DNA of 64,000 nt from a virus: the IMG/VR virus record IMGVR_UViG_3300045988_137040. One strand, written 5' to 3'. Below, one piece after another: positions 22,489-62,493 of the stretch. The notes beneath the pieces are model-generated. The model was not told where the DNA came from. It ran no database searches and saw nothing but the letters and a program-made list of their open reading frames with translations. Numbering within the stretch: position 1 is the first letter of the stretch; the number at the start of each line of letters is the position of its first letter. The position numbers and the translations under genes were made by a program.

Positions 22489-22578
22489 GTCGCATGACGA
22501 CTTTTTTTGGTCGCTTCGCTTGAAATTTTATTTATAATTTTTATTTATAATTTTTATTTATAATTTTTATTTATAATT
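22489..22578. repeat. left inverted-repeat arm flanking the GxxExxY gene; contains a 12-bp tandem repeat, about 4.5 copies
   Basis: GGTCGCTTCGCTTGAAATTTTATTTATAATTTTTATTTATAATT... is the reverse complement of 23121-23203. Confidence 0.85.
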
Positions 22579-22630
22579 GGCTGGCGCGGTGATTAAAAAC
22601 AAATTCCAAACGGTTCAAAGTGCATGCACA

Positions 22631-23083
22631 TCACAAGAGCTTTACCTTCTCGATGGTATGAGTAAGCGGATCACGACGATACCAAGCAGAGTAAAGATAC
22701 GGACCGCCAAAGTTGATCAACATACCGTATTCCGTGTGCGTCAAGTGCATGTAGTTCCACAGCTGGCGCACGTGCGCGTCGTTGGTATGTATCACTGACT
22801 TCAACTCCACAATGATACCATCAATCACCAAGTCCATGCGGTAGTGCTGGGCAAGGCGTACATCCTCCCAGTATATCGCCAACTCTTTCTGACGCTCAAC
22901 CTTGTGTCCTTCTTTGCGTAATAGATACTCCATTGCTGCCTCGTATGCTGACTCCAACAATCCGGGGTGGTATTTCGCGTGTACCTTCATAGCTACACCT
23001 GTGATCGTTCGCAAAGGCTGCAACTTTGCGTTATATTCTTGAATTGCATCCATAGCCGAAAACCTTAATAGCTCATTCTTCAA
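22631..23083 (-). CDS. GxxExxY family protein (PD-(D/E)XK nuclease superfamily)
   Basis: HPGLLESAYEAAMEYLLRKEGHKVERQ...YRMDLVIDGIIVELKSV...LINF shows the GxxExxY motif and the D...ExK core. Confidence 0.8.
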   Translation of the reverse strand: MKNELLRFSAMDAIQEYNAKLQPLRTITGVAMKVHAKYHPGLLESAYEAAMEYLLRKEGHKVERQKELAIYWEDVRLAQHYRMDLVIDGIIVELKSVIHTNDAHVRQLWNYMHLTHTEYGMLINFGGPYLYSAWYRRDPLTHTIEKVKLL

Positions 23084-23120
23084 AACAGTCGCCTCACTCC
23101 CGCGCTATTTGGGTTCGCAG

Positions 23121-23203
23121 AAAAATTATTAATAAAATTATAAATAAAAATTATAAATAAAATTTCAAGCGAAGCGCCCACATAAAAAGGGACGCGGCGA
23201 CCG
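23121..23203. repeat. right inverted-repeat arm flanking the GxxExxY gene
   Basis: ...AATTATAAATAAAAATTATAAATAAAATTTCAAGCGAAGCGCCC is the reverse complement of the left arm. It includes a GCGAAGC box. Confidence 0.85.
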
Positions 23204-29200: not shown

Positions 29201-31239
29201 CACTCGCTGCTCACGGCATACTGCGTGTGGATCTTCTCGTTCCATGCGCCGTCGGCACTCGCGCTGAACTGGTCGATGATGCTGTCGTACTTCACATCGA
29301 CATTCACGTGGTCACGCTCATTCGTACTTCCATCGACGGAGAAGAACTCGGAGCCGAACCGTGAATAGAGGTCGCAGCTTATCCACCGCTCACCTAAGTT
29401 GAAGTCTAACTCCTCAAAGGGGATAGGGGTCGGCACCGCATCCTCCAACGCTCTCAGTGAGCGCGTCACCCTCGGGTCGATGGTCTTGGTCAGCTCGCCT
29501 TTGCCGTCGCTCGCGTCCTCCTCGTCGATGCCGTAGGCGGTGCGTATCTCCTTGGCCTTCTCCACGACGTTGCCGCTGATGAACTTGGCGGCAATCTCGT
29601 AGCCGTTGGTGAGGGGATTGTAATAGACGTCGCCGTCGAGTTTCGTCAGCAACTCACGCTCGGTGAGTCCCGTCAGTGCCATCATATAGGGCATGTCGGG
29701 ATAGCCCTTGTCATTCAGGCTCACGGCCAACGCCTCCTGCGGTGTGCCGGCCTCGTGAATCTCGTCAGTGGCAAACGCTACGGGCTTGAAGAAGATGTCG
29801 GCCTTGGTCAACTCGCTACCGTCCCGCACTTCGAGTGCCAGCAGCTCCTCCGATACGCTCTTCACGATAGGGCGGTTGAGCGGACAGTTAAACTGGCCGT
29901 ACTTCTTCACCCATGCGTCGTAGAGCTTGTTGAGCTGCTTGCGGTCGGCCACGTCCTCGGTCATCGTCGTAGCCTCTTGCACATACAGCAGGTCGTAGGT
30001 GTCGAGGATAGCCTTCAGTTCCTTGGCTTTCTTCTCGTCCTTGGTATCGGTGTGGGCAGTCTGCTGCTTCGTCTCGGCTTTCTTCTCCGCCTTGTGCCGG
30101 GTATTGAAGAGTTCAACGTCGAGGTTCTCGGTCAGGTCCTTGCTCAGCATCGTGCGCATATCCTTGCTGATACCCTGCACGTCAAACTCGTGATGATAGA
30201 CGAAGCCCGGCTTGCCATAGGCATCGGTGCCCACCTTTGTCTCGGTGGCGATGATATGGTCGGGGTGCATGGTGAAATACATGTTCGTGGGGCAGTCGCC
30301 GTCGAGATATGGAGTGAGCAGGAAACTCTCATCGGCGGTGACACCCTCTTTCTCTTTGTCTTTCTGCAATACGAGCAGGTCGGTGCCCACCTCCGTGCCG
30401 CTCTCCTTGAAGAGGTTGTTGGCCAGTCGGTAGGCACCAATCAGCCGGGCCTCTTTCAGTGCCTCGGCTATCTGGTCGGCATCATGGTTGAGATAGTTGC
30501 TCGTGATGATGTACGCCTCGATACCACCGTCGCGCAGACAGTCCAAACCTTTCAGCACGTAGTAGCGATGGATATACTTTGCCGCTGCTCTCCGCACGGG
30601 ACTCTTGCTGTTGGTATAGTCGGGGTCGAAAACACGGATGTCGCCAAAGGGAACGTTGGTGCTTACGAGGTCGTAGGTTCCCAACTCCTCTTTCGGGAAG
30701 TTCTCGAAACCGTCAACCCTCACTTCCGCTACATGCTCCATGCGCTTGCCGAGGATAGTACCGGTGAGCAGGTCTTTCTCATAACCTACCACTTTGCCCT
30801 GGCCTTTATAGGCCCAATCTAAAAAGCGGTCGAGGAACACGCCGCTACCTGCTGCAGGGTCGAGGAGACTCGAACCAGTGGCAGCTTTGCTGTCCAACGC
30901 AGCAATCAATCCTTGCACGAACTTGCTTGGTGTATAGTATGCTGTCAGCACTGACGACCGCAGCGAGTTCATCCACCGATTGTACTCGTTCATGTCCTTG
31001 CTGTGATGGAGCAGCAGCTGAGCCAGCTCCCGAATGTCGTCCCAATAGGGCAGCATGGTCTTAGGCCACTCACGTTTGTCAGTGTATGTGGCATAGAGGA
31101 TGGCGTTGATACCGCCAAACCCCGTGTATTTGTCGAGGACGTTTTTGTTGCCCTCGCCCGTCAATGCGTACTTGATAGCCGCAATGTTGTCTTTCAGTCG
31201 TTGTAATATGCTCATAATATGTTTCTTTGTCTTGTTCAC
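26236..31239 (-). CDS. giant N6-adenine methyltransferase / SNF2-type helicase fusion (P1 DarB-like architecture)
   Basis: Methyltransferase motifs LLDPAAGSGVF and NVPFG. Helicase motifs DHEVGSGKTL, FVDESHMFKN and QRDGRAIRKGN. The start is GTG at 31239 (GTGA overlap) or ATG at 31215. Confidence 0.85.
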   Translation of the reverse strand: MNKTKKHIMSILQRLKDNIAAIKYALTGEGNKNVLDKYTGFGGINAILYATYTDKREWPKTMLPYWDDIRELAQLLLHHSKDMNEYNRWMNSLRSSVLTAYYTPSKFVQGLIAALDSKAATGSSLLDPAAGSGVFLDRFLDWAYKGQGKVVGYEKDLLTGTILGKRMEHVAEVRVDGFENFPKEELGTYDLVSTNVPFGDIRVFDPDYTNSKSPVRRAAAKYIHRYYVLKGLDCLRDGGIEAYIITSNYLNHDADQIAEALKEARLIGAYRLANNLFKESGTEVGTDLLVLQKDKEKEGVTADESFLLTPYLDGDCPTNMYFTMHPDHIIATETKVGTDAYGKPGFVYHHEFDVQGISKDMRTMLSKDLTENLDVELFNTRHKAEKKAETKQQTAHTDTKDEKKAKELKAILDTYDLLYVQEATTMTEDVADRKQLNKLYDAWVKKYGQFNCPLNRPIVKSVSEELLALEVRDGSELTKADIFFKPVAFATDEIHEAGTPQEALAVSLNDKGYPDMPYMMALTGLTERELLTKLDGDVYYNPLTNGYEIAAKFISGNVVEKAKEIRTAYGIDEEDASDGKGELTKTIDPRVTRSLRALEDAVPTPIPFEELDFNLGERWISCDLYSRFGSEFFSVDGSTNERDHVNVDVKYDSIIDQFSASADGAWNEKIHTQYAVSSECSDVDGIDLFIHALQDTCPKLWRYKRDSDGEIVYNDKYEKQKEEDPQAIQMANAKIAEIRTGWVDWLTRQSKDVKDALAKEYNEKFNCFVKPHYDGSHQRFPGLDRKALEEKCGVKDLYQSQKDCVWMLVQNQGGICDHEVGSGKTLIMCIAAHEMKRLGLVHKPMIIGLKANVGAIAETYQTAYPKAKILYAQNKDFRESERVAFFNRMKNNDYDCVIMSHDQFSRLPQSDEVQQQVIQDDLDALENAINVARTYDWTNQHRIMKGLERRKRNLEAKLRDVQNSIAKNKDHVADFKMMGIDHIFVDESHMFKNLGFVTRQDRVAGLGNTEGSKRAYNLLMAIRTIQQRTNKDLGVTFLSGTTVTNSLTELYSLFRYLRPKAMAKQGITCFDAWAAIFTKKSTEFEFSITNQIIMKERFRYFIKVPELAQFYNEITDFRTAEDVGIERPKKHARLLNIEPTPDQQEFTNTLMEFAKWGDFSLIGMDYATDAQRKAKMLYATDLARKMSLDMRMIDPSYPDHPRSKSSMCAKLVKQYYDKFDAVKGTQLIFSDLSTYQGKNRGWNVYEDIKQKLVEMGIPSSEIRFIQECKSESTKAKMIQAVNDGKVRVLFGSTSMLGTGVNAQKRVVAVHHLDTPWRPSDLEQRDGRAIRKGNEIAKLYADNTVDVIIYAVRRSLDAYKFGLLNNKQMFINQLKRGQLSVRTLDEGSMDEKSGMNFAEYMAVLSGNTDLLERAKLEKRIAAMEAERKAFYRDKAGQERKRERLITDNESNAKNIADAKADLDNLMAHGTTNANGEIVNAIAIDGFTPYALDKDGKPTDKVVTVESDPDAYNEAIGAALQKIDKNARTMGNMKRIGNIYGFVISVRTKEWVSEYTHTKEYTNLFYVSGGRLSYPINAEAERSQGRLNRQSKRIAAGQFLNALLRLPDIISGWEQLHEENEARIKQLDTIIKQPWGKDTELAKLRADLAQLDMKINQKLNKGKKTEKTA

Positions 31240-36219: not shown

Positions 36220-36244
36220 CGCAAAGGTAATAATAATCTTTGGA

Positions 36245-36610
36245 TTAGAAGCTCACGAAGTGGATAAAACCGTCTCGCGTGTCGGCCTCCTGCTGACAGC
36301 GTCGCATGATGTCGAGGGCTTTCTCGGCTGTCATACCTGCCTCGTCGAGGGCTTTCTTGATAAGGTCGCTCTCCGTGAACAGTGTCGGGTCGTCGATATA
36401 CACCATGAGGTTCTGCATGGCATCCTCGTAGCCCATCACGTTGCACTCGAAATATTCCGAGTACATTCCGTCCTCGCTGCCAACCGCATTAGGCTCACCA
36501 CCTAACGCGGCCAACAGCTCGTAGAAGGCATGCACCTTGTTATGGAAATCGCAAGAAGTCTCAACATACTCCACCTCGTACTTCTTTGCAACATGAAGAT
36601 TCTGTCCCAT
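36245..36610 (-). CDS. hypothetical protein
   Basis: 121-aa ORF. Its first 14 codons are duplicated at 37497-37538. Confidence 0.7.
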   Translation of the reverse strand: MGQNLHVAKKYEVEYVETSCDFHNKVHAFYELLAALGGEPNAVGSEDGMYSEYFECNVMGYEDAMQNLMVYIDDPTLFTESDLIKKALDEAGMTAEKALDIMRRCQQEADTRDGFIHFVSF

Positions 36611-36630
36611 AGTCGTAATGTATTAAAGGT

Positions 36631-37218
36631 TTATAGAAATAACTTTTCGTAGTCGATGCCGATAGCTTCGGCGATATAGTTCAAGTCCTTGTAGCTCCAC
36701 TGGTGCATAGAGAACAATTCTTGGATAGCAACCTCGGTCTGCTCCGTCACGTCCTCCAACCGCACATAGAACCGCTCGTTGTTGGGGTCGTCATATTGCT
36801 TGGCCAACTGCTCGTTAATCACCACCGTATCGCCCTCATGCTTTATCCACGATGTGGTATCAATGAAAGTGGGGATGTACGTGTTGAGCCACCGCATAGC
36901 CGCCTTTAGGTTGCCAAATGTGTGTGTCCAATGCGTCACCTTACCGTGTCGTTCAGGCAGCTCGGCATGGATAACACAGATATAAATCTTATCACCACGC
37001 TCGTTGCTGTTCTCGTAGGCGTGCTGCTTAGCGTCGAGGATAAGCTGTTCCAACTCGTTGGCATAGTAGCCTTGGGCGTACCGCTCTGTCTCGCCATCGT
37101 TCCACTCGATATAGAGGCTATAGCCGTTGTCCTCTTTCTCGGTGTGCAGTTGCGCACCATAGTCTTTCAACATTCGATTGGCATCTGCCAACATCGTTTT
37201 CCAATTTTCTTGTGCCAT
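36631..37218 (-). CDS. hypothetical protein
   Basis: 195-aa ORF. It is the first gene downstream of palindromic repeat copy 1. Confidence 0.7.
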   Translation of the reverse strand: MAQENWKTMLADANRMLKDYGAQLHTEKEDNGYSLYIEWNDGETERYAQGYYANELEQLILDAKQHAYENSNERGDKIYICVIHAELPERHGKVTHWTHTFGNLKAAMRWLNTYIPTFIDTTSWIKHEGDTVVINEQLAKQYDDPNNERFYVRLEDVTEQTEVAIQELFSMHQWSYKDLNYIAEAIGIDYEKLFL

Positions 37219-37251: not shown

Positions 37252-37445
37252 GTCGCTACGCTTATCGGGGGTCGCTACGCTCGAAATGAAACGTAAAATT
37301 ATACGTAAAATTAAATTTAGAATTATCCTGCACTGCAACGAGCATGGTATGCGATAGCTAATTTTACGTTTAATTCTAAAGTTAATTTTACGTTCCATTT
37401 CAAGCCGCGAAGCGGCGACCAAAAAAGAAGAGCGCGAAGCGCCCC
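37252..37445. repeat. long palindromic intergenic repeat, copy 1
   Basis: The core at 37270-37420 runs GGTCGCTACGCTCGAAATG...CATTTCAAGCCGCGAAGCGGCGACC. The arms are built of 12-bp AT-rich repeats, with flanking GCGTAGC/GCGAAGC boxes. Confidence 0.9.
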
Positions 37446-37457
37446 TCCCTTAGCGTC

Positions 37458-37538
37458 TTACGCAACCGTGAGCAGCTTGGGGCTCTCGTTGCCATTAGCC
37501 ACCTCGTACTTCTTTGCCACATGGAGATTCTGTCCCAT
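37458..37538 (-). pseudogene. chimeric gene remnant: 5' end of a 36245..36610-like gene joined to the 3' end of an ArdC-like gene
   Basis: 37497-37538 is close to 36569-36610, and 37458-37510 is close to 39333-39385. The junction sits in the shared CCTCGT microhomology. The encoded peptide is MGQNLHVAKKYEVANGNESPKLLTVA*. Confidence 0.7.
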
Positions 37539-37703
37539 TGTCGTATTATTTTAAGATTGTACATTCAGTTATCGTCAACTCTGTGTGGTTGGTAGAATAG
37601 CTGCCAACGTTCGGGCTCGAAGAACATTTGTAGGATTTTGTCTTCTTCCATAATTCTATTTGTTTTGGTTATATTGGTAGGGAGATTACTCTCCCCGTTT
37701 GGC

Positions 37704-37931
37704 TTAGTCGATATGCTGATAAGTCTCGCCGTTCTCTTTCTCGTAATCGGTGTAGAATTCCTGATCATCTTCTATCTCTACTTTTTCTCCGCAGAAATCG
37801 TCGTTATCGAGAACAATATCGCAGTCATCATAGGCATCATGTACTTTCTGTAAAGCCTCTATCTCGCTCTCAGCATCAACGCTGACTACCTTGTTTATAG
37901 TCTCTGTGACTGATACGTAATATCTCTTCAT
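37704..37931 (-). CDS. DpnD/PcfM-like small protein
   Basis: MKRYYVSVTETINKVVSVDAESEIEALQKVHDAYDDCDIVLDNDDF fits my recollection of the DpnD/PcfM family. Confidence 0.5.
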   Translation of the reverse strand: MKRYYVSVTETINKVVSVDAESEIEALQKVHDAYDDCDIVLDNDDFCGEKVEIEDDQEFYTDYEKENGETYQHID

Positions 37932-37956
37932 AACTCTTGTAATTTTGGTTAATATT

Positions 37957-38003
37957 GTTCCGTGTCGGGTCTCGAACCCGATGTGCGCCTGTCGCTCACG
38001 GAT
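37957..38003 (-). ncRNA. tRNA-like acceptor/T-arm minihelix (47 nt)
   Basis: Minus strand: ATCCGTG-15 nt-TCGGG TTCGAGA CCCGA-CACGGAA-C. It starts 9 nt after the stop of the upstream gene. Confidence 0.45.
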
Positions 38004-38011
38004 GATAGATG

Positions 38012-38419
38012 TTAGAGTCTCTTGAGAGCAGCTTCGATGCCTGCGACTTTTTTGTCCTCAATCTTCGATATTTCTTGTAATATCTCGTCCAAGTGAGTAA
38101 CAAAACTAAGTGCATCTACTACGCGACCAACCTTCACATTAAGGTCACCAGCATATATGTCGCATATACCAAACTCTTGCAACAAATAGTAAATGGTGCC
38201 ACTATTTAGCGCAAGAAGATTGCATTTAACACAACTTATTTGCACGGTAATAACGCTGAAGGTAATACCACAGCGAGGGATGAAGATTTCTGTCATGTCA
38301 AGCTCAATGAGCTTATCGCATATAGCTTTCGCCAGTTCCTCGCACTTTTTTTTCAGTTCTTGAGACTTGTGTGCGTAATCGTCACGTCCAAGTACTTTCC
38401 ACATTTCTTTTTTCTCCAT
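38012..38419 (-). CDS. hypothetical protein
   Basis: 135-aa ORF. Confidence 0.65.
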   Translation of the reverse strand: MEKKEMWKVLGRDDYAHKSQELKKKCEELAKAICDKLIELDMTEIFIPRCGITFSVITVQISCVKCNLLALNSGTIYYLLQEFGICDIYAGDLNVKVGRVVDALSFVTHLDEILQEISKIEDKKVAGIEAALKRL

Positions 38420-38469
38420 AATTCTCTGTAATTTGGTTCATAGAAGAGGAGCTTGCAAGCTCCCCCTTG

Positions 38470-39312
38470 TTAGGCTGCGTCATTCTTCTTGATGCCGTTC
38501 TCTGTGAGAACCTCGTCGATCAGCTTATCGGTATCCATGTAGTAGCCCCAGCAGGAAACAATCTGCTCCCAGTCGTAGTCGTCCTCCGGCTCACGACCTA
38601 TTTCCGTGAAGACTTTCTTGTAATGGACTTTCTTCTCCAAGACGAATCCCTTGACATCTCCCCACATCCAAAGACCTATGCACTTAATCTCATGCTCGAA
38701 TAAGTCCAAGGCTCGCTTTCTCCAGTTTTTTGTATTAGTGTCATAATACTTGGAGAAACGCTCCTTGTCGCAGTAAGCATATCCGCTAACATAGTCTCCC
38801 TGGCAATATCCGCTGGATGACCACTCGTAGAATGCAATATCCTCGCAATCATGCAGAAGATACGTGAAATCGTCCTCTTCGAGGATATCGCAAAGTTCTT
38901 CTCTATAGACGAATCTCTTTAAGTCGCTCGGGCAGAACTCTTCGTGGTTGTACCACTCGCCCTTGTACAGATTCTCAAGATACCACATGCGGTCACTCTT
39001 GTCATAGCGCATACGGTAATTATCGACGTTTTCACTATTGATGTAGTCGATAATCTTCTTTTGCGACACATATATGCAGACAAGCTCTTTCAAAGCATCC
39101 TCTGCATTTTTAGCGTCAACTTCGCTGCTGCAACAACGAGACAGACCTCTATTGTATCCGTTGTCGGAATAGTCCCAGAAGTAAACTCCCACCAAATCCC
39201 ATGCAGTGCAAGGGCATTCGGCATCCTCATCCTGGTAAATGGTGATTCTGTAATCACCGATTTCCTTCTTTGCAAATTCGTAACTCACATCATTTAATAA
39301 ATGGTTAAACAT
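38470..39312 (-). CDS. hypothetical protein (family seen in plasmid/ICE accessory regions)
   Basis: 280 aa with YRITIYQDEDAECPCTAWDLVG...GLWMWGDVKGFVLEK. No named family assigned. Confidence 0.7.
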   Translation of the reverse strand: MFNHLLNDVSYEFAKKEIGDYRITIYQDEDAECPCTAWDLVGVYFWDYSDNGYNRGLSRCCSSEVDAKNAEDALKELVCIYVSQKKIIDYINSENVDNYRMRYDKSDRMWYLENLYKGEWYNHEEFCPSDLKRFVYREELCDILEEDDFTYLLHDCEDIAFYEWSSSGYCQGDYVSGYAYCDKERFSKYYDTNTKNWRKRALDLFEHEIKCIGLWMWGDVKGFVLEKKVHYKKVFTEIGREPEDDYDWEQIVSCWGYYMDTDKLIDEVLTENGIKKNDAA

Positions 39313-39332
39313 TGAATATCCCCATACAAGGG

Positions 39333-40427
39333 TTACGCAACCGTGAGCAGCTTGGGGCTCTCATTGCCATTAGCCGCCTCGTCGTACTTGCGCAGGATAT
39401 AGTTCACGGCTTTCTGTACCTGGTCGATGACAGCCGGCACGAAGTCCTTGTCAGTGCGCAGGGCGCGTCGCCAACTCTCAACATAGGCGATAGTGTTCTC
39501 GTCGAGCAGCTTGCCGATGCCGAGCATAGAGCAGACACACGCCGACGAGAGTTCAGCCACAAACTCCTCCATGGCATAGTCCTCAGTACCGAAGGCGCCC
39601 GTCACCTCACGGTTCACGGCCTTGGCCGTGGAGTGTGCCATCTCGTGCAGAGCGGTGCCATAGAACTGGGCATCGCCGAGGAAGTTCTTACGCTCGGGCA
39701 GATGTATCTCGTCCTTGCCTATGAGGTAGCAACTCTCTCGTCCACCGAAACGGATAGGACAACGCCAACCGCCAAAGAGTATCATGTGCTCCAACACGTC
39801 GTCACGCACACCCTCCTTGTAGTCATGCTCCGGTGTCTTGGTCATCTCGGCATAGTCGTCGGGGTAGAGCGTGGCGAAGTTCGTTTGGTCGAGGTTATAG
39901 ACCAGATAGCTCTCCTGTATGAACCACGTCTTGCCTTCTTGCTTCTCCTCAAGGGTCAGCTCGTCCCATTCCTCGTCGGTCAGCTTGTTGCCATCGGCAT
40001 CGTAGTGGACAGGCTTGTAGAAGATAATCGGAAACCTGCGCTCCACGTCCATCTCCGGCATCCCGTTGTCGCCGAGGATAACCATGCCGTCGTCGTCGAG
40101 TTTCGGAGTGGCGTTAGCCATCAGGCCGTCGTACTTCAATTCTCCGTTCTCGTTCTTCATCTGACTCTTGGTGATGAAGTACGGAGTGTTCCAGCCTCTC
40201 ACGCTGATAAGCATAGAGAGCCAGAAATAATTGCTCTTACGGTATGGCTTTCCCTTGCGGTAGAGGTTGCAGGGCGCACCCACCGTGGCAGCCACCCACG
40301 GCTGCTTGTAGTCGTGCTGCTCCATAGAGTTCAGTGCCTCGATGAACAGCTCGGCATACTTGGCCTTCATAGAGTCCGACATGCGCAGACCCTTACGGCC
40401 ACCCTTGTGATTTCTTTTCGTTGCCAT
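39333..40427 (-). CDS. ardC: ArdC-like antirestriction protein (ssDNA-binding N-domain plus HExxH metalloprotease domain)
   Basis: KQPWVAATVGAPCNLYRKGKPYRKSNYFWL...TPYFITKSQ fits the ArdC N-domain pattern. The C-terminal domain has LHEMAHST. Confidence 0.7.
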   Translation of the reverse strand: MATKRNHKGGRKGLRMSDSMKAKYAELFIEALNSMEQHDYKQPWVAATVGAPCNLYRKGKPYRKSNYFWLSMLISVRGWNTPYFITKSQMKNENGELKYDGLMANATPKLDDDGMVILGDNGMPEMDVERRFPIIFYKPVHYDADGNKLTDEEWDELTLEEKQEGKTWFIQESYLVYNLDQTNFATLYPDDYAEMTKTPEHDYKEGVRDDVLEHMILFGGWRCPIRFGGRESCYLIGKDEIHLPERKNFLGDAQFYGTALHEMAHSTAKAVNREVTGAFGTEDYAMEEFVAELSSACVCSMLGIGKLLDENTIAYVESWRRALRTDKDFVPAVIDQVQKAVNYILRKYDEAANGNESPKLLTVA

Positions 40428-40471
40428 AATAGTTCCTCCAATAATTTATGGTTGGTTATTCTGATTGTGTT

Positions 40472-40664
40472 GGTCGCTATCGCTCCACGAATTTTTAGGG
40501 TCGCTACGCTTGAAATGGAACGTTATCCGTAAAATTAAATTTAGAATTATACTGCACAATCTACCACACGGATAGGGTATGCAATAGCTTAATTCTAAAG
40601 TTAATTTTACGTTTAATTTCAAGCACGAAGTGCGACCCAAAAGAATAAGTACGAAGTGCGACCC
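40472..40664. repeat. long palindromic intergenic repeat, copy 2
   Basis: The core at 40498-40637 runs GGGTCGCTACGCTTGAAATGGAACG...TTTAATTTCAAGCACGAAGTGCGACCC, with a second GTACGAAGTGCGACCC box. Confidence 0.9.
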
Positions 40665-40669
40665 GATAG

Positions 40670-41512
40670 TTATGCGTCAGCCCAGTAAGTCCACGTCTTT
40701 AACTTACGTGTGCCATAGCGTTTGAGATAGGCGTTGAGACGTTTCTCGAACTTCTCACGCTCGTGCTTCACCCCTTCTAAGATAGTCTTGCGGTCAGCCT
40801 CCGTCATCTTCATGTGGTCGCCATGGTATTTCGACGGATTTTCCTGCACGTCCCATTCCGACCACGCTTTCCACTGCCATAGGTTCAGCGGCTCCGTCTG
40901 GGAATAACTCTCACGCTGGAGATAGAGCGTTGTGCCGTCATGCGACAGCGATTGCAACTGCTCAATATCCTTATCGAACTGTGCAAGGTTCTCACGAAGG
41001 AAGTATTGTTTCAGCCGCTCCTCGCTCGACGTTATGCGGTTGTAAGCGTCAAGGCTCGGCCCCTCGTCAGCCCAACAGAAGCGGTTCTCGATAGACGGCT
41101 TCTTAAATTTGAGGATGCCTCCATTCTGCAAACGCACGGCATAAGAGAACTGCTTGCACTCATAATAGTCAAGCATGTGCTCATCGCTCCACACCTTAGC
41201 CATCTCCCGTTTGAACTCGGGCAACAGAGCCTTGTCGCCCGACGGCTTCTTTTCCGCCGTCTCCTCGGCCTTGATAGCGGCAAGCACGTCATTGAAATCT
41301 TCTTCGCCAAAGCTCTCACCACAAGAGAGCCCATCGGGAAAGTCGCTCGTGTCTTGCACCATCAGTTCCGGCTCGCGCTCATCACGGTGGAGCGCATAGC
41401 ACTTACTAAGAAAGTCGTCATAGTTCTTGCAACTCTTAAGGCTTATCCAACCACCGGCAATAGAGCCGTTGTTATACTTGGCGTATGTGCCAACATATAC
41501 TTTAGGATTCAT
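40670..41512 (-). CDS. protein with an ArdA-like antirestriction N-terminal domain
   Basis: KVYVGTYAKYNNGSIAGGWISLKSCKNYDDFLSKCYALHRDEREPELMVQDTSDFP parallels the ArdA N-terminus (VYIANLGKYNEGELVGAWF...). Confidence 0.65.
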   Translation of the reverse strand: MNPKVYVGTYAKYNNGSIAGGWISLKSCKNYDDFLSKCYALHRDEREPELMVQDTSDFPDGLSCGESFGEEDFNDVLAAIKAEETAEKKPSGDKALLPEFKREMAKVWSDEHMLDYYECKQFSYAVRLQNGGILKFKKPSIENRFCWADEGPSLDAYNRITSSEERLKQYFLRENLAQFDKDIEQLQSLSHDGTTLYLQRESYSQTEPLNLWQWKAWSEWDVQENPSKYHGDHMKMTEADRKTILEGVKHEREKFEKRLNAYLKRYGTRKLKTWTYWADA

Positions 41513-41535
41513 ATCGTTGTGATTTAGAATTGTTG

Positions 41536-42948
41536 TTATGCTGCTTTAGCTTGTGTTCTCGATTTCTTCTCCAGCTTCACGAACTCCGCCTTGTTGTCCG
41601 TGATAAGCTTCCGTATCTCCTTGTCACGCTCCGGCACCGCGTTGCAGGCGGCACGGCACTGCACGATAGTGTTCGATGCCATGTTGTACTCGATGGTGGC
41701 CAAACGCTTGCCGTTGTCGTCCTTGGCAGAGAGGATAAGACTTTCGGGGTGGGTAAAATAATTCCAATAGCCCATGCGGTACACGCAGTGGTGCATGTGC
41801 TCGGCTTCTTCCTTGAACTCGTCAACGCTTTGCAGCGGACGGATAGTAAGGTTCGTGGAAGTCAAGTCGATTGTCAGCATCTTGCCCATGTGCTCGGGAT
41901 AGTGTTGCGCTGCCTCGGCCTCCCGCTTGGCACGCTTAGCGCACTCCGCATTGTAGAGTATCATGTCTTGCCTCCGTCGCTCAGCCGCCATAGCCTGTAG
42001 TCTGGCTTCGGCAATTTCGTCGATACGCCTCTTGCGCTTCAGCAACATGTCATGCAGGGCGTGCAGATTGTCGGGACACACAAACTTAGGATTGTGGATG
42101 TCCATGTGCAGGAACGTCAGCAGATAGAGCGTGTCAAGCCATAGCGAAGGGTCGTCGATATGATATTTATGTCGGATGCAAATCTTCACGGCCGCCTCCC
42201 CACCATGGGGCAGACGGGTTCGGTTACGCACAAGATGGTCGAAGAGCGGTGTCTGAGAAGCAGACAGCATCGTCTCAGCGATAGGATAGGCTATCACACG
42301 GATGCAGCTGGTGTTATAGTCGTACTTGTCCATCAGTCCCGGCACGTCCTTGTACTGCCACTGCTTAGTGAGCGATTTTATCTCATAGTTCCACACATAG
42401 AGATTCTTCCGCATCATGGAGCCCCAACCCATGCAGTTAGGTGACAACTCCCGGCGAAGTATCAATGGTGAGGACTTGCTGAAGGCGTCATACGCATAGG
42501 ACATAACATTTACAGTACGCTCATATACCTTGCGCTCTCCCGTAGGAGCATACATGATGCGCTCAATCTCCCACGCATGCACCTGCGCTGCCTTGCCATA
42601 TTGCAGCTTACGCTCCACGCGGACATAGCGCACCAACTGAATGTCACGCTTAGCCTCGAAGATAGCAATATCACGAAGCTCGGTATCCACTCGGCGGCGA
42701 TTTAGCTCCACCGTCTTTTTCTCCGTCCACTTGGCATGGCACTGAGGACATTCGTGCTGGCCGATAGGGTTGATAGAGCAACCGCACTCGGTGCAGAAGT
42801 AAACCAGCTCGCCACGCAACACCCTCGAAGCAAGACCGGGCTTGAACAGTTTACGATAGAGGCGGTGGGTCTCCGTCTTGCCGGGTTCGTCATGCAGACG
42901 CTTGTTGATAGCGGCGCAGCGTCTGCCAAATTCTGTCACTCGTTTCAT
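41536..42948 (-). CDS. PcfJ-like protein
   Basis: The C-terminus EEAEHMHHCVYRMGYWNYFTHPESLILSAKDDNGKRLATIEY fits the PcfJ domain pattern. An N-terminal zinc-ribbon-like CTECGC...CPQC is present. Confidence 0.6.
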   Translation of the reverse strand: MKRVTEFGRRCAAINKRLHDEPGKTETHRLYRKLFKPGLASRVLRGELVYFCTECGCSINPIGQHECPQCHAKWTEKKTVELNRRRVDTELRDIAIFEAKRDIQLVRYVRVERKLQYGKAAQVHAWEIERIMYAPTGERKVYERTVNVMSYAYDAFSKSSPLILRRELSPNCMGWGSMMRKNLYVWNYEIKSLTKQWQYKDVPGLMDKYDYNTSCIRVIAYPIAETMLSASQTPLFDHLVRNRTRLPHGGEAAVKICIRHKYHIDDPSLWLDTLYLLTFLHMDIHNPKFVCPDNLHALHDMLLKRKRRIDEIAEARLQAMAAERRRQDMILYNAECAKRAKREAEAAQHYPEHMGKMLTIDLTSTNLTIRPLQSVDEFKEEAEHMHHCVYRMGYWNYFTHPESLILSAKDDNGKRLATIEYNMASNTIVQCRAACNAVPERDKEIRKLITDNKAEFVKLEKKSRTQAKAA

Positions 42949-43349
42949 TTCTTTTCCTCCTGCTTTAAGTCCTCGTCCGTTTCGTCATAGTAGTGTACGG
43001 CCATGCTGTAGATTACCTCTGGAGAGCGGAAGATGCCCACGGCAGACTTGCCTTTGCGGTTAGCCTTGGCCACCTTCAGCATCTTGCCGAAGATGTATTC
43101 ACAGCATCCGTCGATGCTCTTTCCGGGTGCTGCAAGTTTCTCGATGATGTCGGGACGGGAATACAGATAACCCTCGATAGCCTCCTTGAACTCCTTGGGG
43201 ATGACATAGCTCGCACCGCCCTCGCTCTTTTTGGTATCGGCGTGGGCCTTGGAAGTACGCTTAGACTCGCTCTTAGGCTGAGCCTCTTGTTCACGCTGCT
43301 GCTTCAGTTCCTCGGCAGCGGCTTTGATAGCTGATAAATCAATAGCCAT
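42945..43349 (-). CDS. PcfK-like protein
   Basis: FKEAIEGYLYSRPDIIEKLAAPGKSIDGCCEYIFGKM...AVHYYDETDEDL fits the PcfK-like pattern. ATGA overlap with the PcfJ-like gene. Confidence 0.6.
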   Translation of the reverse strand: MAIDLSAIKAAAEELKQQREQEAQPKSESKRTSKAHADTKKSEGGASYVIPKEFKEAIEGYLYSRPDIIEKLAAPGKSIDGCCEYIFGKMLKVAKANRKGKSAVGIFRSPEVIYSMAVHYYDETDEDLKQEEKK

Positions 43350-43385
43350 AATTGCTTGAAATTTGAAAGTTGTTATTGTGTGTTG

Positions 43386-43590
43386 ATCGCTAACGCTCCC
43401 ATGATTTAGTGGTCGCTACACTCGAAATGAAACGTAAAATTATCCGTAAAATTAAATTTAGAATTATCCTGCGCAACCTGCAACGAGCATGGTATGCGAT
43501 AGCTAATTTTACGTTTAATTCTAAAGTTAATTTTACGTTCCATTTCAAGCCGCGAAGCGGCGACCGAAAAAGAAGAGCGCGTAGCGCCCA
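43386..43590. repeat. long palindromic intergenic repeat, copy 3
   Basis: The core is at 43411-43565 and is nearly identical to copy 1, including the centre GCAACGAGCATGGTATGCGATAGC. Flanking GCGAAGC and GCGTAGC boxes. Confidence 0.9.
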
Positions 43591-48016: not shown

Positions 48017-48048
48017 CAAAGGTATAACACTTTTTGTTACCCCGCAAA
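48017..48048 (-). promoter_or_regulatory. Bacteroidota-type promoter for the long minus-strand block
   Basis: The minus strand reads TTTG-N20-TACCTTTG, an exact -33/-7 consensus with canonical spacing. It implies a ~490-nt leader before the ATG at 47515. Confidence 0.55.
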
Positions 48049-49395: not shown

Positions 49396-49893
49396 TCACT
49401 GCTCACTCTCCTGCTTTCCCATCACTACCCGACTTCTGAGGTTGCTGTCCTTGGGGTTGTCGAGCTCCACCAGTCCGTCCATGGCGATGAATATTTTCTT
49501 CTTCTTCCCTTTTGACTCAATGGCCTTGCGGACCCGGATGCCGCGCTCGCCGGGGAAGAGGGCGAAGGCCTCATGGGTGGGGTCAAAGTGTGACTCAGCC
49601 ACCTCACGTTTGAGGTTGTTGGCAGGCAGGAACTTCACGATGAGACGTGGCGGCAGCTCCACCATGCGTGTGGTGCCGTCTTTCTCGATACGCTTATAAT
49701 GGCGTGCAGGACGCTGGCGCACGACGAAGGTGCCGAAGCTCTCCACCGTCACGCAGCGGTAGTTGCCCTCGCAGAGCATATACCGCATCTCGTCGAAGAG
49801 GGCAGGGAGCACCACCTGGCAAGTGGCGATGCTGATACCACTGCGTTTAGATACGGCCTGCGCAAGCCTGTATAGGTACTTCTTCGGTTCCAT
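49396..49893 (-). CDS. HU/IHF-family DNA-binding protein (long Bacteroidota type)
   Basis: VESFGTFVVRQRPARHYKRIEKDGTTRMVELPPRLIVKFLPANNLKREV is the HU beta-arm pattern. Confidence 0.65.
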   Translation of the reverse strand: MEPKKYLYRLAQAVSKRSGISIATCQVVLPALFDEMRYMLCEGNYRCVTVESFGTFVVRQRPARHYKRIEKDGTTRMVELPPRLIVKFLPANNLKREVAESHFDPTHEAFALFPGERGIRVRKAIESKGKKKKIFIAMDGLVELDNPKDSNLRSRVVMGKQESEQ

Positions 49894-55147: not shown

Positions 55148-55203
55148 GATAATTTGAAATTTTATGATTATTGTTTTGCGGTTTCGCAAACATGTGCTTT
55201 TGT

Positions 55204-55252
55204 GCAACCGCATGGTCGTGCAACCGCACGGTTGCACGACCATGCGGTTATG
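55204..55252. repeat. 49-bp near-perfect palindrome built from TGCGGTT/AACCGCA units
   Basis: GCAACCGCATGGTCGTGCAACCG-CA-CGGTTGCACGACCATGCGGTT. It is intergenic, upstream of the terminase genes. Confidence 0.85.
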
Positions 55253-55256
55253 CAAA

Positions 55257-61469: not shown

Positions 61470-62341
61470 GAACAACGAAACCCAATTATACCGCCCTCTG
61501 GCAGCAGTGCCTTAACTATATCCGTGACCGTTACCCTAAGGGCGAGAAGTACGACCACTGGTTCAACGTCTGGTACGGCGACGTGAAGTTTGAGAGCTAT
61601 GATGCCGACAAACGTCAGTTGCGTATCAACGTGCCGTCGAAGTATGTGTACGAGTACCTCGAGACGCACCAACTGGAAACGCTCAATGAGGCTCTGCGGG
61701 CCACTTTTAAGGAACAGGTGGTGCTGTCCTACCATATAGCTCCGCAAGAGCCGTCATTCGCTGATATGGCTGCTTACCTGCAACGGCAGTCGGGTGGGGT
61801 AGGACAGGGTAAAATCCATATCCATATCGACAACGCAAGAGAACGGTTGGAAGATGGTTTGAAATACTATCTGAAGGATAAACCTGTCACATGGCTACCG
61901 GGTTATGAGCATATCGTCCGATGGTTGACCGACAACGACAACCGGGGACTGTTGTGTTTCGGCTATTCGGGGGTGGGAAAAACATTGATATGTCAAAAGA
62001 TTCTTCCGATACTGATAGGCCGGCCCGTTGTCAGTGTCAGGGCAACAGACCTGCACGACCGTCTCGAAGAGCTGAAGCGTGAGCGCATCGTCGTCATCGA
62101 CGACCTCGGCAAGGAGCCACGCAAACACTATGGCGACACCGACCAGAGTTTCTACGAGTTGTGCGACAATGCCGAGCATACTGGCAACATCCTTATCATC
62201 ACCACGAACCTCTCCACCAATACCGTTGACGACCCACACTATCCCGACAGCATAAAGAACCGCTATGGTGAAGAAGTTTTTACCCGGCTGAAGGCCATCA
62301 CTCACACCGCACGTATTGAAGCCGAGAGCCTGCGCGAGTGA
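61463..62341 (+). CDS. AAA+ ATPase with a DnaA-N-like N-terminus (DnaC/IstB-like helicase loader candidate)
   Basis: Walker A GYSGVGKTL and Walker B RIVVIDDLG. 7-nt overlap with rep. Confidence 0.65.
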   Translation: MVRTTKPNYTALWQQCLNYIRDRYPKGEKYDHWFNVWYGDVKFESYDADKRQLRINVPSKYVYEYLETHQLETLNEALRATFKEQVVLSYHIAPQEPSFADMAAYLQRQSGGVGQGKIHIHIDNARERLEDGLKYYLKDKPVTWLPGYEHIVRWLTDNDNRGLLCFGYSGVGKTLICQKILPILIGRPVVSVRATDLHDRLEELKRERIVVIDDLGKEPRKHYGDTDQSFYELCDNAEHTGNILIITTNLSTNTVDDPHYPDSIKNRYGEEVFTRLKAITHTARIEAESLRE

Positions 62342-62344
62342 TAT

Positions 62345-62406
62345 GGGCGCCGCTTCGCAGCTTGAAATTAAACGTAAAATTATCCGTAAAATTAAACTTA
62401 AAATTA
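62345..62406. repeat. solo arm of the long palindromic repeat family
   Basis: GGGCGCCGCTTCGCAGCTTGAAATTAAACGTAAAATTATCCGTAAAATTAAACTTAAAATTA matches one arm of copies 1-3. No partner arm is present. Confidence 0.8.
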
Positions 62407-62493
62407 TTCAACCAACCAAGGCTTGCTGAGAGATAGGGTAGTGGGCGCCCAAAGGAAAGGAATTGATGCGACCAGTATCAATTCCACGTCTCT

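What the first reader, a model, noticed from the sequence alone, without database searches (positions are those of the whole stretch)
37252..43590. Three ~180-bp imperfect palindromes with GCGNAGC mini-hairpin boxes, each just upstream of a gene block in the ArdA/ArdC antirestriction region (ssDNA/hairpin-promoter-like elements?)
Copies lie at 37252-37445, 40472-40664 and 43386-43590. All three share the same features:
- outer boxes GGTCGCTACGCT ... AGCGGCGACC;
- arms made of 12-bp AT-rich units (ACGTAAAATTAT, ACGTAAAATTAA, ATTTAGAATTAT);
- a 30-40-bp non-palindromic centre, with GCAACGAGCATGGTATGCGATAGC identical in copies 1 and 3;
- two GCGAAGC/GCGTAGC boxes per side.

d(GCGNAGC) is known to form exceptionally stable DNA mini-hairpins. 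The outer box of each copy ends 34-45 nt upstream of the first ATG of a minus-strand block. Copy 3 precedes the PcfK-PcfJ-ArdA block. Copy 2 precedes ArdC. Copy 1 precedes 36631..37218.

The surrounding 26 kb is uniformly oriented and carries ArdA-, ArdC- and methyltransferase-helicase genes, like plasmid leading regions. In those regions, long hairpins (Frpo/ssi type) act as single-strand promoters or priming sites for immediate-early anti-defence expression. Hairpin promoters are also used by phage N4. Alternative roles are MITE-like mobile repeats (see the GxxExxY cassette), RNA processing or termination sites, or recombination hot spots. The ORFs called inside the repeats are artefacts.
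Basis: partly seen in the sequence, partly recalled or inferred. Interest (0 to 1): 0.75.

Follow-up and report, generated by a model that had tools for sequence, protein, structure and literature searches.

The report
Gene-less copies of a nuclease cassette
The three palindromes are real, but they are not special promoters for anti-restriction genes: they are gene-less copies of a widespread, apparently undescribed repeat element of Bacteroidales whose full-length form carries a small "GxxExxY" nuclease gene of unknown function.

Summary
Three 190-bp imperfect palindromes lie at the stated coordinates. I also found a degenerate one-armed copy (62335-62456) and a 671-bp full-length relative (22509-23179).

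The window is a ~100-kb Bacteroidales phage-plasmid, not a conjugative leading region.

Scans of metagenome and viral contigs found hundreds of relatives. They share one plan:
- a terminal GGKC;
- a covarying mini-hairpin with a GNA or GNNA loop;
- TYRAAAT;
- 1-4 AT-rich 12-bp units;
- a variable centre;
- a mirror arm.

Copies are intergenic and strongly oriented relative to flanking genes. They occur between convergent genes and beside housekeeping genes in bacterial chromosomes.

Every complete GxxExxY (PF13366/TIGR04256) nuclease gene in these loci sits between two such arms. So do homologues selected by protein alone. One identical cassette occurs in at least three chromosomal contexts.

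The three palindromes are best read as internal-deletion, MITE-like derivatives of this cassette. They lack a Bacteroides -7 box. A related contig shows them at the junction of a module deletion.

The single-strand promoter reading is not supported. How the element moves, and what it does to transcripts, is inferred only.

The parts
37252..37445 (-). Palindrome copy 1. The core runs box to box over 37270-37420. Extra terminal boxes lie at 37252-37262 and 37431-37445. It is a gene-less member of the family, between a remnant ORF and the 195-aa gene.
40472..40664 (-). Palindrome copy 2, with core 40499-40637. It lies between ArdA and ArdC. ArdA and this copy are absent together in some related contigs.
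43386..43590 (-). Palindrome copy 3, with core 43411-43565. It lies between the 330-aa gene and PcfK.
62335..62456 (+). Degenerate fourth copy. It has one arm with three units, a centre remnant (GATAGGGT) and closing boxes GGGCGCC...GGGCGCCC. It lies between the stop codons of two convergent genes.
22509..23179 (-). Full-length cassette. The left arm starts at 22509: GGTCGCTTCGC TTGAAAT followed by four TTTATTTATAATT units. The right arm ends at 23179 (...ATTTCAAGCGAAGCGCCC). The two arms enclose the nuclease gene.
22631..23053 (-). GxxExxY / PDDEXK_3 nuclease gene (140 aa). The catalytic residues D74, E83 and K85 and the motif G31xxE34xxY37 are conserved.
48017..48024 (-). Canonical Bacteroides -7 box (TACCTTTG) with an upstream TTTG. 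It is the last recognisable host-type promoter before the 12-kb stretch that holds the three palindromes.
36222..36229 (-). The next canonical -7 box (TACCTTTG) downstream of the three palindromes.
37458..37554 (-). Mosaic remnant. 37458-37514 copies the 3' end of ArdC (39333-39389, 91% identity). 37499-37554 copies the 5' end of the 121-aa gene (36571-36626, 89% identity). This is a scar of past rearrangement next to copy 1.
   Evidence: repeat families D12 and D13

Best explanation
The three palindromes are non-autonomous, gene-less members of a large family of Bacteroidales repeat elements. I call the full-length form the GxxExxY cassette.

The full-length form is 0.53-0.67 kb. It is a small PD-(D/E)XK nuclease gene bracketed by two inverted arms. 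Each arm has this plan:
- a terminal GGKC;
- a mini-hairpin with a 2-5-bp stem and a GNA or GNNA loop, on the strand whose 3' end points outward;
- TYRAAAT;
- 1-4 tandem AT-rich 12-bp units with core TTTARAATT.

Internal deletion of the gene leaves short palindromes of 70-250 bp, like those in the window. Their centres keep the inner junctions of the cassette.

Shown:
- the family exists;
- its architecture;
- covariation in the mini-hairpin stems;
- its strictly intergenic, orientation-biased distribution in chromosomes and phage-plasmids;
- the consistent embedding of GxxExxY genes between the arms;
- one identical cassette in several genomic contexts;
- the palindromes at a rearrangement junction.

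Inferred:
- The cassette is or was mobile, and the nuclease acts on the arms. The tandem units would be its lineage-specific binding sites and the hairpin termini its cleavage or recognition sites.
- The gene-less copies were spread in trans or arose in place.
- In the window the copies are co-transcribed inside a promoter-less 12-kb operon. There they would form long RNA hairpins between cistrons. As 97%-identical direct repeats they also allow deletion and shuffling of anti-restriction modules.
For: Family and architecture:
- These held 474 arm termini, 100 complete elements and 140 'solo' arms in 808 kb.
- Mini-hairpin stems covary (GC, GCC/GGC, GGGC/GCCC, GCAC/GTGC, GCCGC/GCGGC, GCCTC/GAGGC and others). 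Loops are almost always GNA or GNNA.

Link to the nuclease gene:
- All 11 GxxExxY genes with both flanks inside the locus lie between a left and a right arm. The window copy is one of them.
- Loci chosen by protein alone (60-76% identity) also have the arms.
- Distant homologues are flanked by inverted arms built from different tandem units: 27/30 paired bases in Bacteroides finegoldii (45% identity) and 25/28 in Bernardetia (40% identity).
- The centres of short elements match the inner junctions of the cassette. The chain of similarity is GGCTGGCGCGGTG (window cassette), GGCTGGCGCGGTAC (L063_1), GGCTATCGCGGTAT (L063_3), AGCTATCGCATAC (copy 1).

Dispersal:
- The identical 140-aa protein P0171, with identical arms, lies in at least three different chromosomal contexts.
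- Many homologues sit on 0.5-2-kb contigs, as expected where repeats break assemblies.
- There is an empty site in L149 and a filled site in L113.
- Nested and tandem copies occur.

Distribution:
- 67 copies lie between co-directional genes, 12 between convergent genes and 3 between divergent genes. The baseline of intergenic regions is 389, 50 and 42.
- Polarity relative to flanking genes is 55 to 10.
- The 98-nt class lies next to ProRS, ValRS, glycogen synthase and TonB-dependent receptor genes.

In the window:
- There is no -7 box inside the palindromes. Canonical promoters occur only at 48024 and 36229.
- L052 joins the 330-aa gene to the 195-aa gene through a single element.
Against: - No clear, consistent target-site duplication was found. 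ATATCT is possible at one site and CATG flanks another lineage.
- The cassette encodes no known transposase. PD-(D/E)XK nucleases are not known to move DNA on their own.
- The strong orientation bias, and the near-absence from divergent intergenic regions, suggest that the copies also have, or are filtered by, a transcript-level effect.
- The units of copies 1-3 (ACGTAAAATTA / CTTTAGAATTA) differ from those of the resident cassette (TTTATTTATAATT). The resident nuclease may therefore not act on them.
- Close relatives of the window all carry the cassette at the same site, so no polymorphism was seen there.
- The homology between the centres of copies 1-3 and the cassette junctions is weak. It rests on intermediates.
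- In Prevotella nigrescens the boxes are direct rather than inverted. In Sphingomonas no arms were seen.
Confidence: 0.7

Rival explanations
1. These are single-strand or hairpin promoters. The folded palindrome, or its GNA mini-hairpins, would recruit RNA polymerase to DNA entering a cell. This would give immediate-early expression of ArdA, ArdC and neighbouring genes, as Frpo/ssi elements do in F and ColIb-P9, or as N4 early promoters do.
For: - Three copies lie upstream of gene blocks in a uniformly oriented anti-restriction region that lacks canonical promoters for 12 kb.
- GNA mini-hairpins with 4-5-bp stems resemble N4 promoter hairpins (PMC13037366, PMC4496689).
- At the upstream terminus the GNA loop lies on the template strand, so an N4-like geometry would point inward, towards the gene (my inference).
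- In several full-length cassettes the nuclease ATG follows the arm directly, so some promoter must lie in or before the arm.
Against: - The replicon is a phage-plasmid with no relaxase or type IV secretion system in the ~84 kb seen.
- There is no -33/-7 motif in the arms on either strand.
- Eight of 11 elements fold better as the sense strand.
- Family members sit between convergent genes and beside housekeeping genes in chromosomes.
- The one giant protein seen is a coiled-coil tape-measure protein with no match to any solved structure, N4 polymerase included.
- Hairpin loops have a variable central base, unlike the purine required at N4 position -11.
Confidence: 0.06
2. The main selected role is at the RNA level. 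The elements would be co-transcribed and fold into long hairpins between cistrons. These would act as RNase III processing sites, 3' stabilisers or partial terminators and insulators, like T7 RNase III sites, REP/BIME elements or Correia elements. Mobility would be secondary or extinct.
For: - The elements are strictly intergenic, with a median of 48 nt after the upstream stop codon.
- They are enriched where a gene end is present: 12 in convergent against 3 in divergent regions, and 67 in co-directional regions.
- Polarity relative to transcription is strong, 55 to 10.
- The sense strand folds better in most copies. Centre hairpins contain G·U pairs that would be C·A mismatches on the other strand.
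- In the window each copy is preceded by a small GC hairpin and a T-run that looks like a terminator.
- The palindromes lie inside a promoter-less 12-kb stretch.
Against: - The loops are mostly GNA triloops. These are exceptionally stable in DNA, not a typical RNA terminator motif (PMC13037366).
- No U-tract follows the elements.
- The 3-nt spacers between unit cores are often not complementary, while the cores are conserved as sequence.
- The wobble count is only 28 G·U against 18 A·C.
- No Rfam family matches.
- This reading does not explain why a nuclease gene sits between the arms.
Confidence: 0.2
3. The elements are operator or architectural arrays for a DNA-binding protein of the phage-plasmid or host. 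Candidates are the phage repressor, as with P1 C1 operators or mycobacteriophage stoperators, or the HU-HIG protein. The tandem 12-bp units would be binding sites that silence or insulate operons.
For: - The conserved core TTTARAATT is repeated every 12 bp in inverted arrays. Cores are conserved as sequence while spacers are not complementary.
- HU-like genes are among the commonest genes in the loci that carry elements. The window has one at 49396-49893.
- The orientation bias resembles that of stoperators.
Against: - Unit sequences differ greatly between lineages (TTTARAATT, CACAGAGA, GAAGTNNN) and track the embedded nuclease gene rather than the host replicon.
- The family also populates chromosomes, where no phage regulator is expected.
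- The stem covariation in the terminal mini-hairpins is not explained by this reading.
Confidence: 0.08
4. The elements are priming signals (ssi-type). The GNA mini-hairpins on both strands would be recognised by the phage-encoded primase, as CCGAAGG is in RSF1010 ssiA/ssiB or GCGAAAGC in G4 oric.
For: - Mini-hairpins of the C-GNA-G type are known at primase sites. In RSF1010 they lie on opposite strands of an inverted repeat (PMC13037366).
- The phage-plasmid encodes a 1144-aa protein with a DnaG-type zinc ribbon.
Against: - The family is abundant in chromosomes and is oriented relative to genes.
- Copy number is variable, and there are nested and solo arms.
- This reading gives the embedded nuclease gene no role.
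Confidence: 0.04

Closest known systems
MITEs, especially Correia/NEMIS elements of Neisseria; also the MITEs shared by Bacteroidota and their phages catalogued in PMC11602168
   Same: Both are short, non-coding, multi-copy and intergenic, with inverted termini. Both come in long and short size classes and show nested copies. Both are shared between host chromosomes and phages and are co-transcribed with neighbours. Both derive from a longer gene-carrying element with the same ends.
   Different: The gene-carrying partner encodes only a 140-aa PD-(D/E)XK nuclease, not a DDE transposase. The termini are GNA mini-hairpins followed by tandem 12-bp units. No consistent target-site duplication was found.
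REP / BIME / REPIN elements with their RAYT (Y1 HUH) transposase
   Same: Both have a conserved tetranucleotide next to a small covarying hairpin (GGKC plus hairpin here, GTAG plus hairpin there). Both form inverted doublets that make a larger hairpin. Both are extragenic with a 3'-end bias. Both occur in mosaics with other repeats. Both have a single small protein gene flanked by the repeats.
   Different: The associated protein is PD-(D/E)XK, not HUH. The arms carry tandem AT-rich units. The loops are GNA or GNNA.
Free-standing homing endonuclease genes of phages (seg/mob type) and PD-(D/E)XK homing enzymes such as I-Ssp6803I (from my own knowledge)
   Same: A small nuclease ORF is wedged between co-oriented conserved genes: fabD and fabG, radA and its neighbour, or inside tRNA arrays and phage modules. 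It is expressed by read-through.
   Different: Homing genes do not leave multi-copy gene-less palindromes. They are not bracketed by long inverted arms.
Frpo/ssi single-strand promoters of conjugative leading regions (F, ColIb-P9)
   Same: Both are repeated long imperfect hairpins found upstream of ardA-type genes in a uniformly oriented block.
   Different: There is no conjugation machinery and no promoter boxes in the stem. The wrong strand folds better. The family is not restricted to anti-defence genes or to mobile DNA.
Phage N4 virion RNA polymerase promoters
   Same: Both have small GC hairpins with three-base G-N-A loops (GGA or GAA in N4).
   Different: Stems here are mostly 2-4 bp and the central loop base is free. 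There is no conserved -17 to +1 sequence. There are dozens of copies per genome. No virion polymerase was found.

Membership tests
Frpo/ssi single-strand promoter of a conjugative leading region | Lies in the first-transferred region next to oriT of a conjugative element | tested here: not met
   Pfam and PHROGs over the window and 20 kb beyond show a head protease, a tape-measure protein, cI/Cro-like HTH proteins, a primase, Rep3 and ParA. No relaxase or type IV secretion system was seen. About 20 kb of the replicon was not seen.
Frpo/ssi single-strand promoter of a conjugative leading region | The hairpin stem recreates the host promoter boxes (for Bacteroides, -33 TTTG and -7 TAnnTTTG) | tested here: not met
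   No TAnnTTTG lies inside 37252-37445, 40472-40664 or 43386-43590 on either strand.
Frpo/ssi single-strand promoter of a conjugative leading region | The structure forms on the template (transferred) strand | tested here: inconclusive
   Eight of 11 elements fold better as the sense strand. Wobble counts are only 28 to 18.
Frpo/ssi single-strand promoter of a conjugative leading region | Promoter activity on single-stranded DNA | not testable with these tools
   This needs reporter assays or 5'-end mapping.
N4-type hairpin promoter | A 5-7-bp stem and a 3-nt loop with a purine at the centre, on the template strand, plus conserved -17 to +1 sequence | tested here: not met
   Stems are mostly 2-4 bp. 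The loop is G-N-A with any N. The geometry is compatible only at the upstream terminus.
N4-type hairpin promoter | The phage encodes a virion RNA polymerase | tested here: not met
   The only giant protein seen (2983 aa) is coiled-coil and Ala/Leu/Lys/Glu-rich. It has no DxDGD motif and no match to any solved structure. The rest of the genome was not seen.
MITE (non-autonomous derivative of a larger mobile element) | Short, non-coding, with terminal inverted repeats | tested here: met
   Elements are 70-250 bp with inverted arms. ORFs inside them have no coding signal.
MITE (non-autonomous derivative of a larger mobile element) | Many dispersed copies, including nested or tandem ones | tested here: met
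   There are 100 complete elements and 140 further arms in 808 kb. At least 17 arms lie on one 74-kb viral contig. Compound copies occur.
MITE (non-autonomous derivative of a larger mobile element) | Shares its ends with a longer, gene-carrying element | tested here: met
   GxxExxY cassettes of 531-671 bp have the same arms and inner junctions.
MITE (non-autonomous derivative of a larger mobile element) | Target-site duplication and empty/filled site pairs | tested here: inconclusive
   One empty/filled pair was found (L149 against L113), with a possible 6-bp ATATCT repeat or microhomology. CATG flanks another lineage. Neither is general.
MITE (non-autonomous derivative of a larger mobile element) | The partner encodes a recognised transposase | tested here: not met
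   The only gene is a PD-(D/E)XK nuclease.
REP/REPIN-RAYT system | A conserved tetranucleotide plus a covarying small hairpin, arranged as inverted doublets | tested here: met
   GGKC plus a mini-hairpin with many compensating stems, at both ends. This is an analogy of form only.
REP/REPIN-RAYT system | An associated Y1 HUH transposase (RAYT) | tested here: not met
   The commonest neighbouring proteins were scanned. They include PDDEXK_3, HU-like proteins, Rep3 and ParA, but no Y1_Tnp. Only 20 protein clusters were scanned.
Integron attC site | An adjacent intI integrase and attI, with R/L boxes carrying extrahelical bases | not tested
   No tyrosine recombinase appeared among the window proteins scanned. 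No dedicated search was made.
GxxExxY protein family (TIGR04256 / PF13366), for the gene 22631-23053 | Passes the curated family cut-offs and keeps the GxxExxY and D...ExK motifs | tested here: met
   TIGR04256 scored 111 bits against a cut-off of 35. PF13366 scored 105 bits against a cut-off of 22. G31, E34, Y37, D74, E83 and K85 are invariant.

The most novel reading that the evidence does not exclude
GxxExxY proteins (PF13366/TIGR04256) have thousands of members and no known function. They may be the nucleases of an unrecognised class of small selfish cassettes. In this reading:
- the nuclease gene is bracketed by inverted arms made of lineage-specific tandem units, which would be its binding sites;
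- the arms are capped by GNA mini-hairpins, which would be its cleavage or recognition sites;
- the cassette inserts between co-oriented genes and is expressed by read-through;
- it sheds gene-less palindromes that populate Bacteroidota chromosomes and their phages and plasmids.
Probability: 0.4. Interest if true: 0.8.

Novelty: new variant of a known kind. Interest (0 to 1): 0.58.

Why it matters
- It removes a tempting false positive. Long hairpin repeats in front of ardA/ardC-type genes are not by themselves evidence of single-strand promoters or of a leading region.
- It gives a large protein family of unknown function a concrete, testable genomic context. A nuclease gene sits between matching inverted tandem-unit arms, and gene-less derivatives exist.
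- It identifies an abundant repeat family shared by gut and rumen Bacteroidales chromosomes and their ~100-kb phage-plasmids. The family could be used to link phages to hosts. It breaks metagenome assemblies.
- In the window the nearly identical copies bracket anti-restriction modules and sit at deletion junctions in related contigs. They probably contribute to the modular turnover of anti-defence genes.

Tried and rejected
- Rfam at gathering and at permissive thresholds: nothing relevant.
- blastn of the element against PLSDB and INPHARED, and megablast of 8.6-kb and 4.8-kb pieces of the window against PLSDB: no match.
- My first collection pattern (CGTAAAATTAANNTTANAATTA) was too specific.
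- Sigma-70-type promoter scan: no more hits than in shuffles, and the model is wrong for Bacteroides.
- A virion RNA polymerase in the 2983-aa protein: rejected, because it is a coiled-coil tape-measure-like protein.
- The 103-113-aa protein common near elements: it is not embedded between arms and is just a neighbour.
- Insertion polymorphism of the window's cassette among close relatives: none, because all carry it.
- Sequence search of the nuclease against solved structures: no hit. The fold search gave only generic PD-(D/E)XK matches.
- I looked for a fixed link between the GGGC/GGTC terminal polarity and the orientation of the nuclease gene. It is not uniform, so I do not claim one.
- I did not build a covariance model of the long arms. 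Unit-number indels make alignment unreliable, and the arms' spacers are often not complementary.

Full report
**1. The observation**

The three copies are at 37252-37445, 40472-40664 and 43386-43590 and have the features described.
- The unit ACGTAAAATTA (one mismatch or fewer) occurs 16 times in the window against 1.04 expected.
- Each copy folds as a single strand far better than shuffled controls, with z from -3.8 to -6.7.
- The neighbouring genes are as labelled: PcfK, PcfJ, ArdA, ArdC and PcfM.
- A repeat search found a fourth, one-armed copy at 62335-62456, between the stop codons of two convergent genes.

**2. What the replicon is**

The window is not a conjugative plasmid. It carries:
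- a Rep3 initiator with 22-bp iterons, ParA and a DnaA_N/AAA protein;
- a head-maturation protease, ThyX, YopX and a weak terminase match.

Contigs that extend the window add more:
- a 2983-aa tape-measure-like protein;
- cI/Cro-like HTH proteins;
- a 1144-aa primase-like protein.

The giant protein is coiled-coil. It lacks a DxDGD motif and matches no solved structure. Related contigs are 100-106 kb long. No relaxase or type IV secretion gene was seen in about 84 kb. This is a phage-plasmid, so 'leading region' does not apply.

On the minus strand, canonical Bacteroides promoters (TTTG...TAnnTTTG) lie at 51307, 49094, 48024, 36229 and 25511. None lies between 48.0 and 36.2 kb, where the palindromes sit. 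No TAnnTTTG occurs inside any palindrome on either strand.

**3. Close relatives**

Contigs encoding the identical PcfK or 195-aa protein carry the same elements at 97-100% identity, but the modules between them vary:
- Some contigs have PcfK-PcfJ-ArdC-[element]-195-aa gene. They lack ArdA together with copy 2, and lack the 280-aa to PcfM block.
- L052 joins the 330-aa gene directly to the 195-aa gene through one element. Everything between copy 3 and copy 1 is absent.
- L042 has a version of copy 1 with one unit per arm instead of three, a symmetric loss. Downstream of the 330-aa gene it has an asymmetric variant.

A relative with a 69%-identical ArdC (L063) has three palindromes at equivalent junctions with different units: TTTATTTATAATT and GACTTAAAATTT. 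One of them has its centre inverted. A 73% relative (L060) has palindromes built from GAAGTNNN units but with a homologous centre. A 60% relative (L064) has none near ArdC.

**4. The wider family**

I scanned for one arm terminus with the pattern AATTWTANNNNNNATTTYRAGCN{2,12}GCGMCC.
- The viral-contig scan gave 11 loci on contigs of 25-142 kb. One 74-kb contig has at least 17 arms.
- In 808 kb there are 474 arm termini, 100 complete elements and 140 further arms.

The common plan is GGKC, a mini-hairpin, TYRAAAT, 1-4 twelve-bp units with core TTTARAATT, a centre of 0-70 nt, and a mirror arm. Sizes run from 70 to 250 bp, with a mode near 98 bp.

The mini-hairpin stems covary: GC, GCC/GGC, GGGC/GCCC, GCAC/GTGC, GCCGC/GCGGC, GCCTC/GAGGC, GAAC/GTTC and others. 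The loops stay GNA or GNNA on the strand whose 3' end points outward. This part of the structure is clearly under selection as a hairpin.

The long arms behave differently. The unit cores are conserved as sequence, while the 3-nt spacers are often not complementary.

**5. Where the elements sit**

I used a codon-usage gene caller that reproduces the supplied gene tables.
- 67 elements lie between co-directional genes, 12 between convergent genes and 3 (in two regions) between divergent genes.
- The baseline of intergenic regions of at least 60 bp is 389, 50 and 42.
- The median distance is 48 nt from the upstream stop and 71 nt to the downstream start.
- Polarity is strong. In the sense orientation of the flanking genes, the left end reads GGGCGC and the right end GCGACC in 55 cases, against 10 for the reverse. 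Clusters also show orientation bias.

The 98-nt class lies in bacterial chromosomes. Its neighbours include prolyl- and valyl-tRNA synthetase, glycogen synthase, a TonB-dependent receptor and GH2 enzymes. There it sits inside mosaics of other short repeats. Other classes lie in phage-plasmids with Rep3, ParA, HU-HIG and a tape-measure protein.

The family is therefore tied neither to anti-restriction genes, nor to gene starts, nor to mobile DNA.

**6. The link to the GxxExxY gene**

Among the proteins most often found in element-bearing loci is a 140-aa PDDEXK_3 protein, which is TIGR04256 'GxxExxY protein'.
- Each of the 11 genes with both flanks inside its locus lies between a left and a right arm, giving units of 531-671 bp. 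Most 'solo' arms are these.
- The window has one at 22509-23179, around gene 22631-23053.
- Oriented by the gene, the structure is arm, 0-65 nt, ATG...stop, 0-50 nt, mirror arm.
- The inner junctions of the window cassette (GGCTGGCGCGGTG... and ...GGGTTCGCAGAAAAATT) recur as the centre of many gene-less elements. They grade into the centre of copies 1-3 through intermediates. The short elements are thus internal-deletion derivatives.

Independent samples chosen by protein confirm the association:
- Three viral contigs and the P0230 and P0171 lineages (60-76% identity) all have arms of the same plan.
- The identical P0171 protein, with identical arms, lies in at least three different chromosomal contexts: next to ribD, after ribF and an Rce1-like gene, and others. 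It is often followed by a gene-less copy.
- There are 6920 homologues at E below 1e-5. Many are on contigs of 0.5-2 kb, as expected for repeats that break assemblies.
- Distant homologues in PLSDB are wedged between co-oriented housekeeping genes: radA and an FAD protein in Bacteroides finegoldii, ade and a guanylyltransferase in Bernardetia, fabD and fabG in Sphingomonas.
- The first two are flanked by 27/30 and 25/28 inverted arms built from CAGAGGA and CACAGAGA units. Sphingomonas shows no arms. Prevotella nigrescens has direct rather than inverted boxes.

Unit sequence thus changes with the protein lineage. That is what one expects if the units are the protein's binding sites.

The protein model is confident (pLDDT 93). 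It resembles Cas4, lambda exonuclease, AddAB nuclease and Hjc only weakly, so it has a generic PD-(D/E)XK fold. The catalytic D, E and K are invariant.

**7. How it most likely works**

Shown:
- the family and its architecture;
- the hairpin covariation at the termini;
- the distribution and polarity;
- the embedding of the nuclease gene;
- the multi-context copies;
- one empty/filled site (L149 against L113);
- the position of the window's copies at a module-deletion junction.

Inferred:
- The cassette is a selfish unit whose nuclease recognises the tandem units and the hairpin termini.
- It relies on read-through transcription.
- The gene-less copies persist because they are tolerated, or mildly useful, in 3' intergenic positions.
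- In the window they are probably transcribed from the promoter at 48024 as part of a long operon, where they form RNA hairpins between cistrons.
- As near-identical direct repeats they allow loss and exchange of anti-restriction modules.

I put 0.7 on 'gene-less derivatives of the GxxExxY cassette family'. I put about 0.4 on the stronger claim that the nuclease mobilises them.

**8. Comparison with known systems**

- In form the elements are closest to MITEs such as Correia elements and to REPIN/RAYT systems. The partner gene is a PD-(D/E)XK nuclease rather than a DDE or HUH enzyme. No consistent target duplication was found.
- GNA mini-hairpins are known at primase sites and at N4 promoters (PMC13037366, PMC4496689). 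The defining features of those systems were tested and not met.
- MITEs shared by Bacteroidota and their phages have been catalogued generically (PMC11602168).
- I found nothing on GxxExxY/PF13366 cassettes in the held literature. PF13366 is listed there as 'function unknown' (PMC3424549).

**9. Verdict**

The elements belong to a new variant of a known kind. Their main value is the link they give to a large nuclease family of unknown function.

Noticed in passing
window 57622-62341 and 59800-60200: A plasmid maintenance module: ParA (57622-58488), two small downstream ORFs, 22-bp iterons (AATTGAGGACAGATTAATAGCT, at least six copies), a Rep3-type initiator (60258-61469) and a DnaA_N/AAA protein (61463-62341). 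With the head protease (15457-17091) and the tape-measure gene just beyond the window end, this makes the replicon a phage-plasmid of about 100 kb that is common in human gut metagenomes.
   Followed up: partly
window 55198-58521 and 62515-62555: Repeated motifs of the type GTGCAACCGCA / TGCGGTTGTGCGACCGCA are scattered around the ParA region and again next to the fourth palindrome. They may be partition or regulator binding sites.
   Followed up: no
window 8716-8870: Nine in-register 12-bp repeats (ATGGCTATGGCA-like) lie where two predicted ORFs overlap. I did not determine which strand, if either, is coding.
   Followed up: no
window 26236-31215: A 1659-aa methyltransferase-helicase (Eco57I-like methylase, SNF2 and Helicase_C domains) follows a DnaJ/LPD29 protein. 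It is reminiscent of phage P1 DarB (from my own knowledge), in keeping with a phage rather than a conjugative anti-restriction region.
   Followed up: no
L060/L061 7970-8078, 12566-12682 and 19363-19469: A related phage-plasmid (ArdC 73% identical) has, at the same junctions, palindromes built from GAAGTNNN units with a centre homologous to the window's (CAGCTATCGCCCTGCATGGGTGG). The same contigs carry TnpB (OrfB_IS605) genes. Whether a GxxExxY gene with GAAGT-type arms exists was not checked.
   Followed up: partly
L063 13270-14532 and L064 11158-12771: Reverse-transcriptase (RVT_1) genes with strongly structured flanks lie just downstream of ArdC in two related contigs. They may be group II introns or retron-like elements.
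   Followed up: no
cluster-0 loci, e.g. L087, L127, L134 and L145 (flanks of the 98-nt elements): Intergenic regions of these Prevotella-like chromosomes are mosaics of several other short repeat families: (GTGAAAA)n, three copies of AGGATTTAA, a GC-rich hairpin CCTCACCCCC...GAGGGGAG, and ACCTTTAGCTCGGCGTAGCCAATC. In P0171 loci there are also GGTGTCGGATTGCAAATCCGACACAAC palindromes.
   Followed up: no
L239 (Sphingomonas parapaucimobilis NZ_CP155749.1, 482837-483265): A GxxExxY gene sits between fabD and fabG, with gaps of 33 and 2 nt and no obvious arms. This looks like a selfish insertion into a core operon outside Bacteroidota.
   Followed up: partly
L113 / L149 / L128 / L169 / L186: Elements and an empty site lie between phage-borne tRNA genes separated by conserved CCCTAAAAATTAAAG spacers.
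   Followed up: partly
L216-L225 (P0230 loci): The GxxExxY cassette lies at the boundary between a conserved DUF6261 gene and highly variable large proteins (Lcl_C and Flg_new domains, fibre-like). It marks the edge of a variable region.
   Followed up: no
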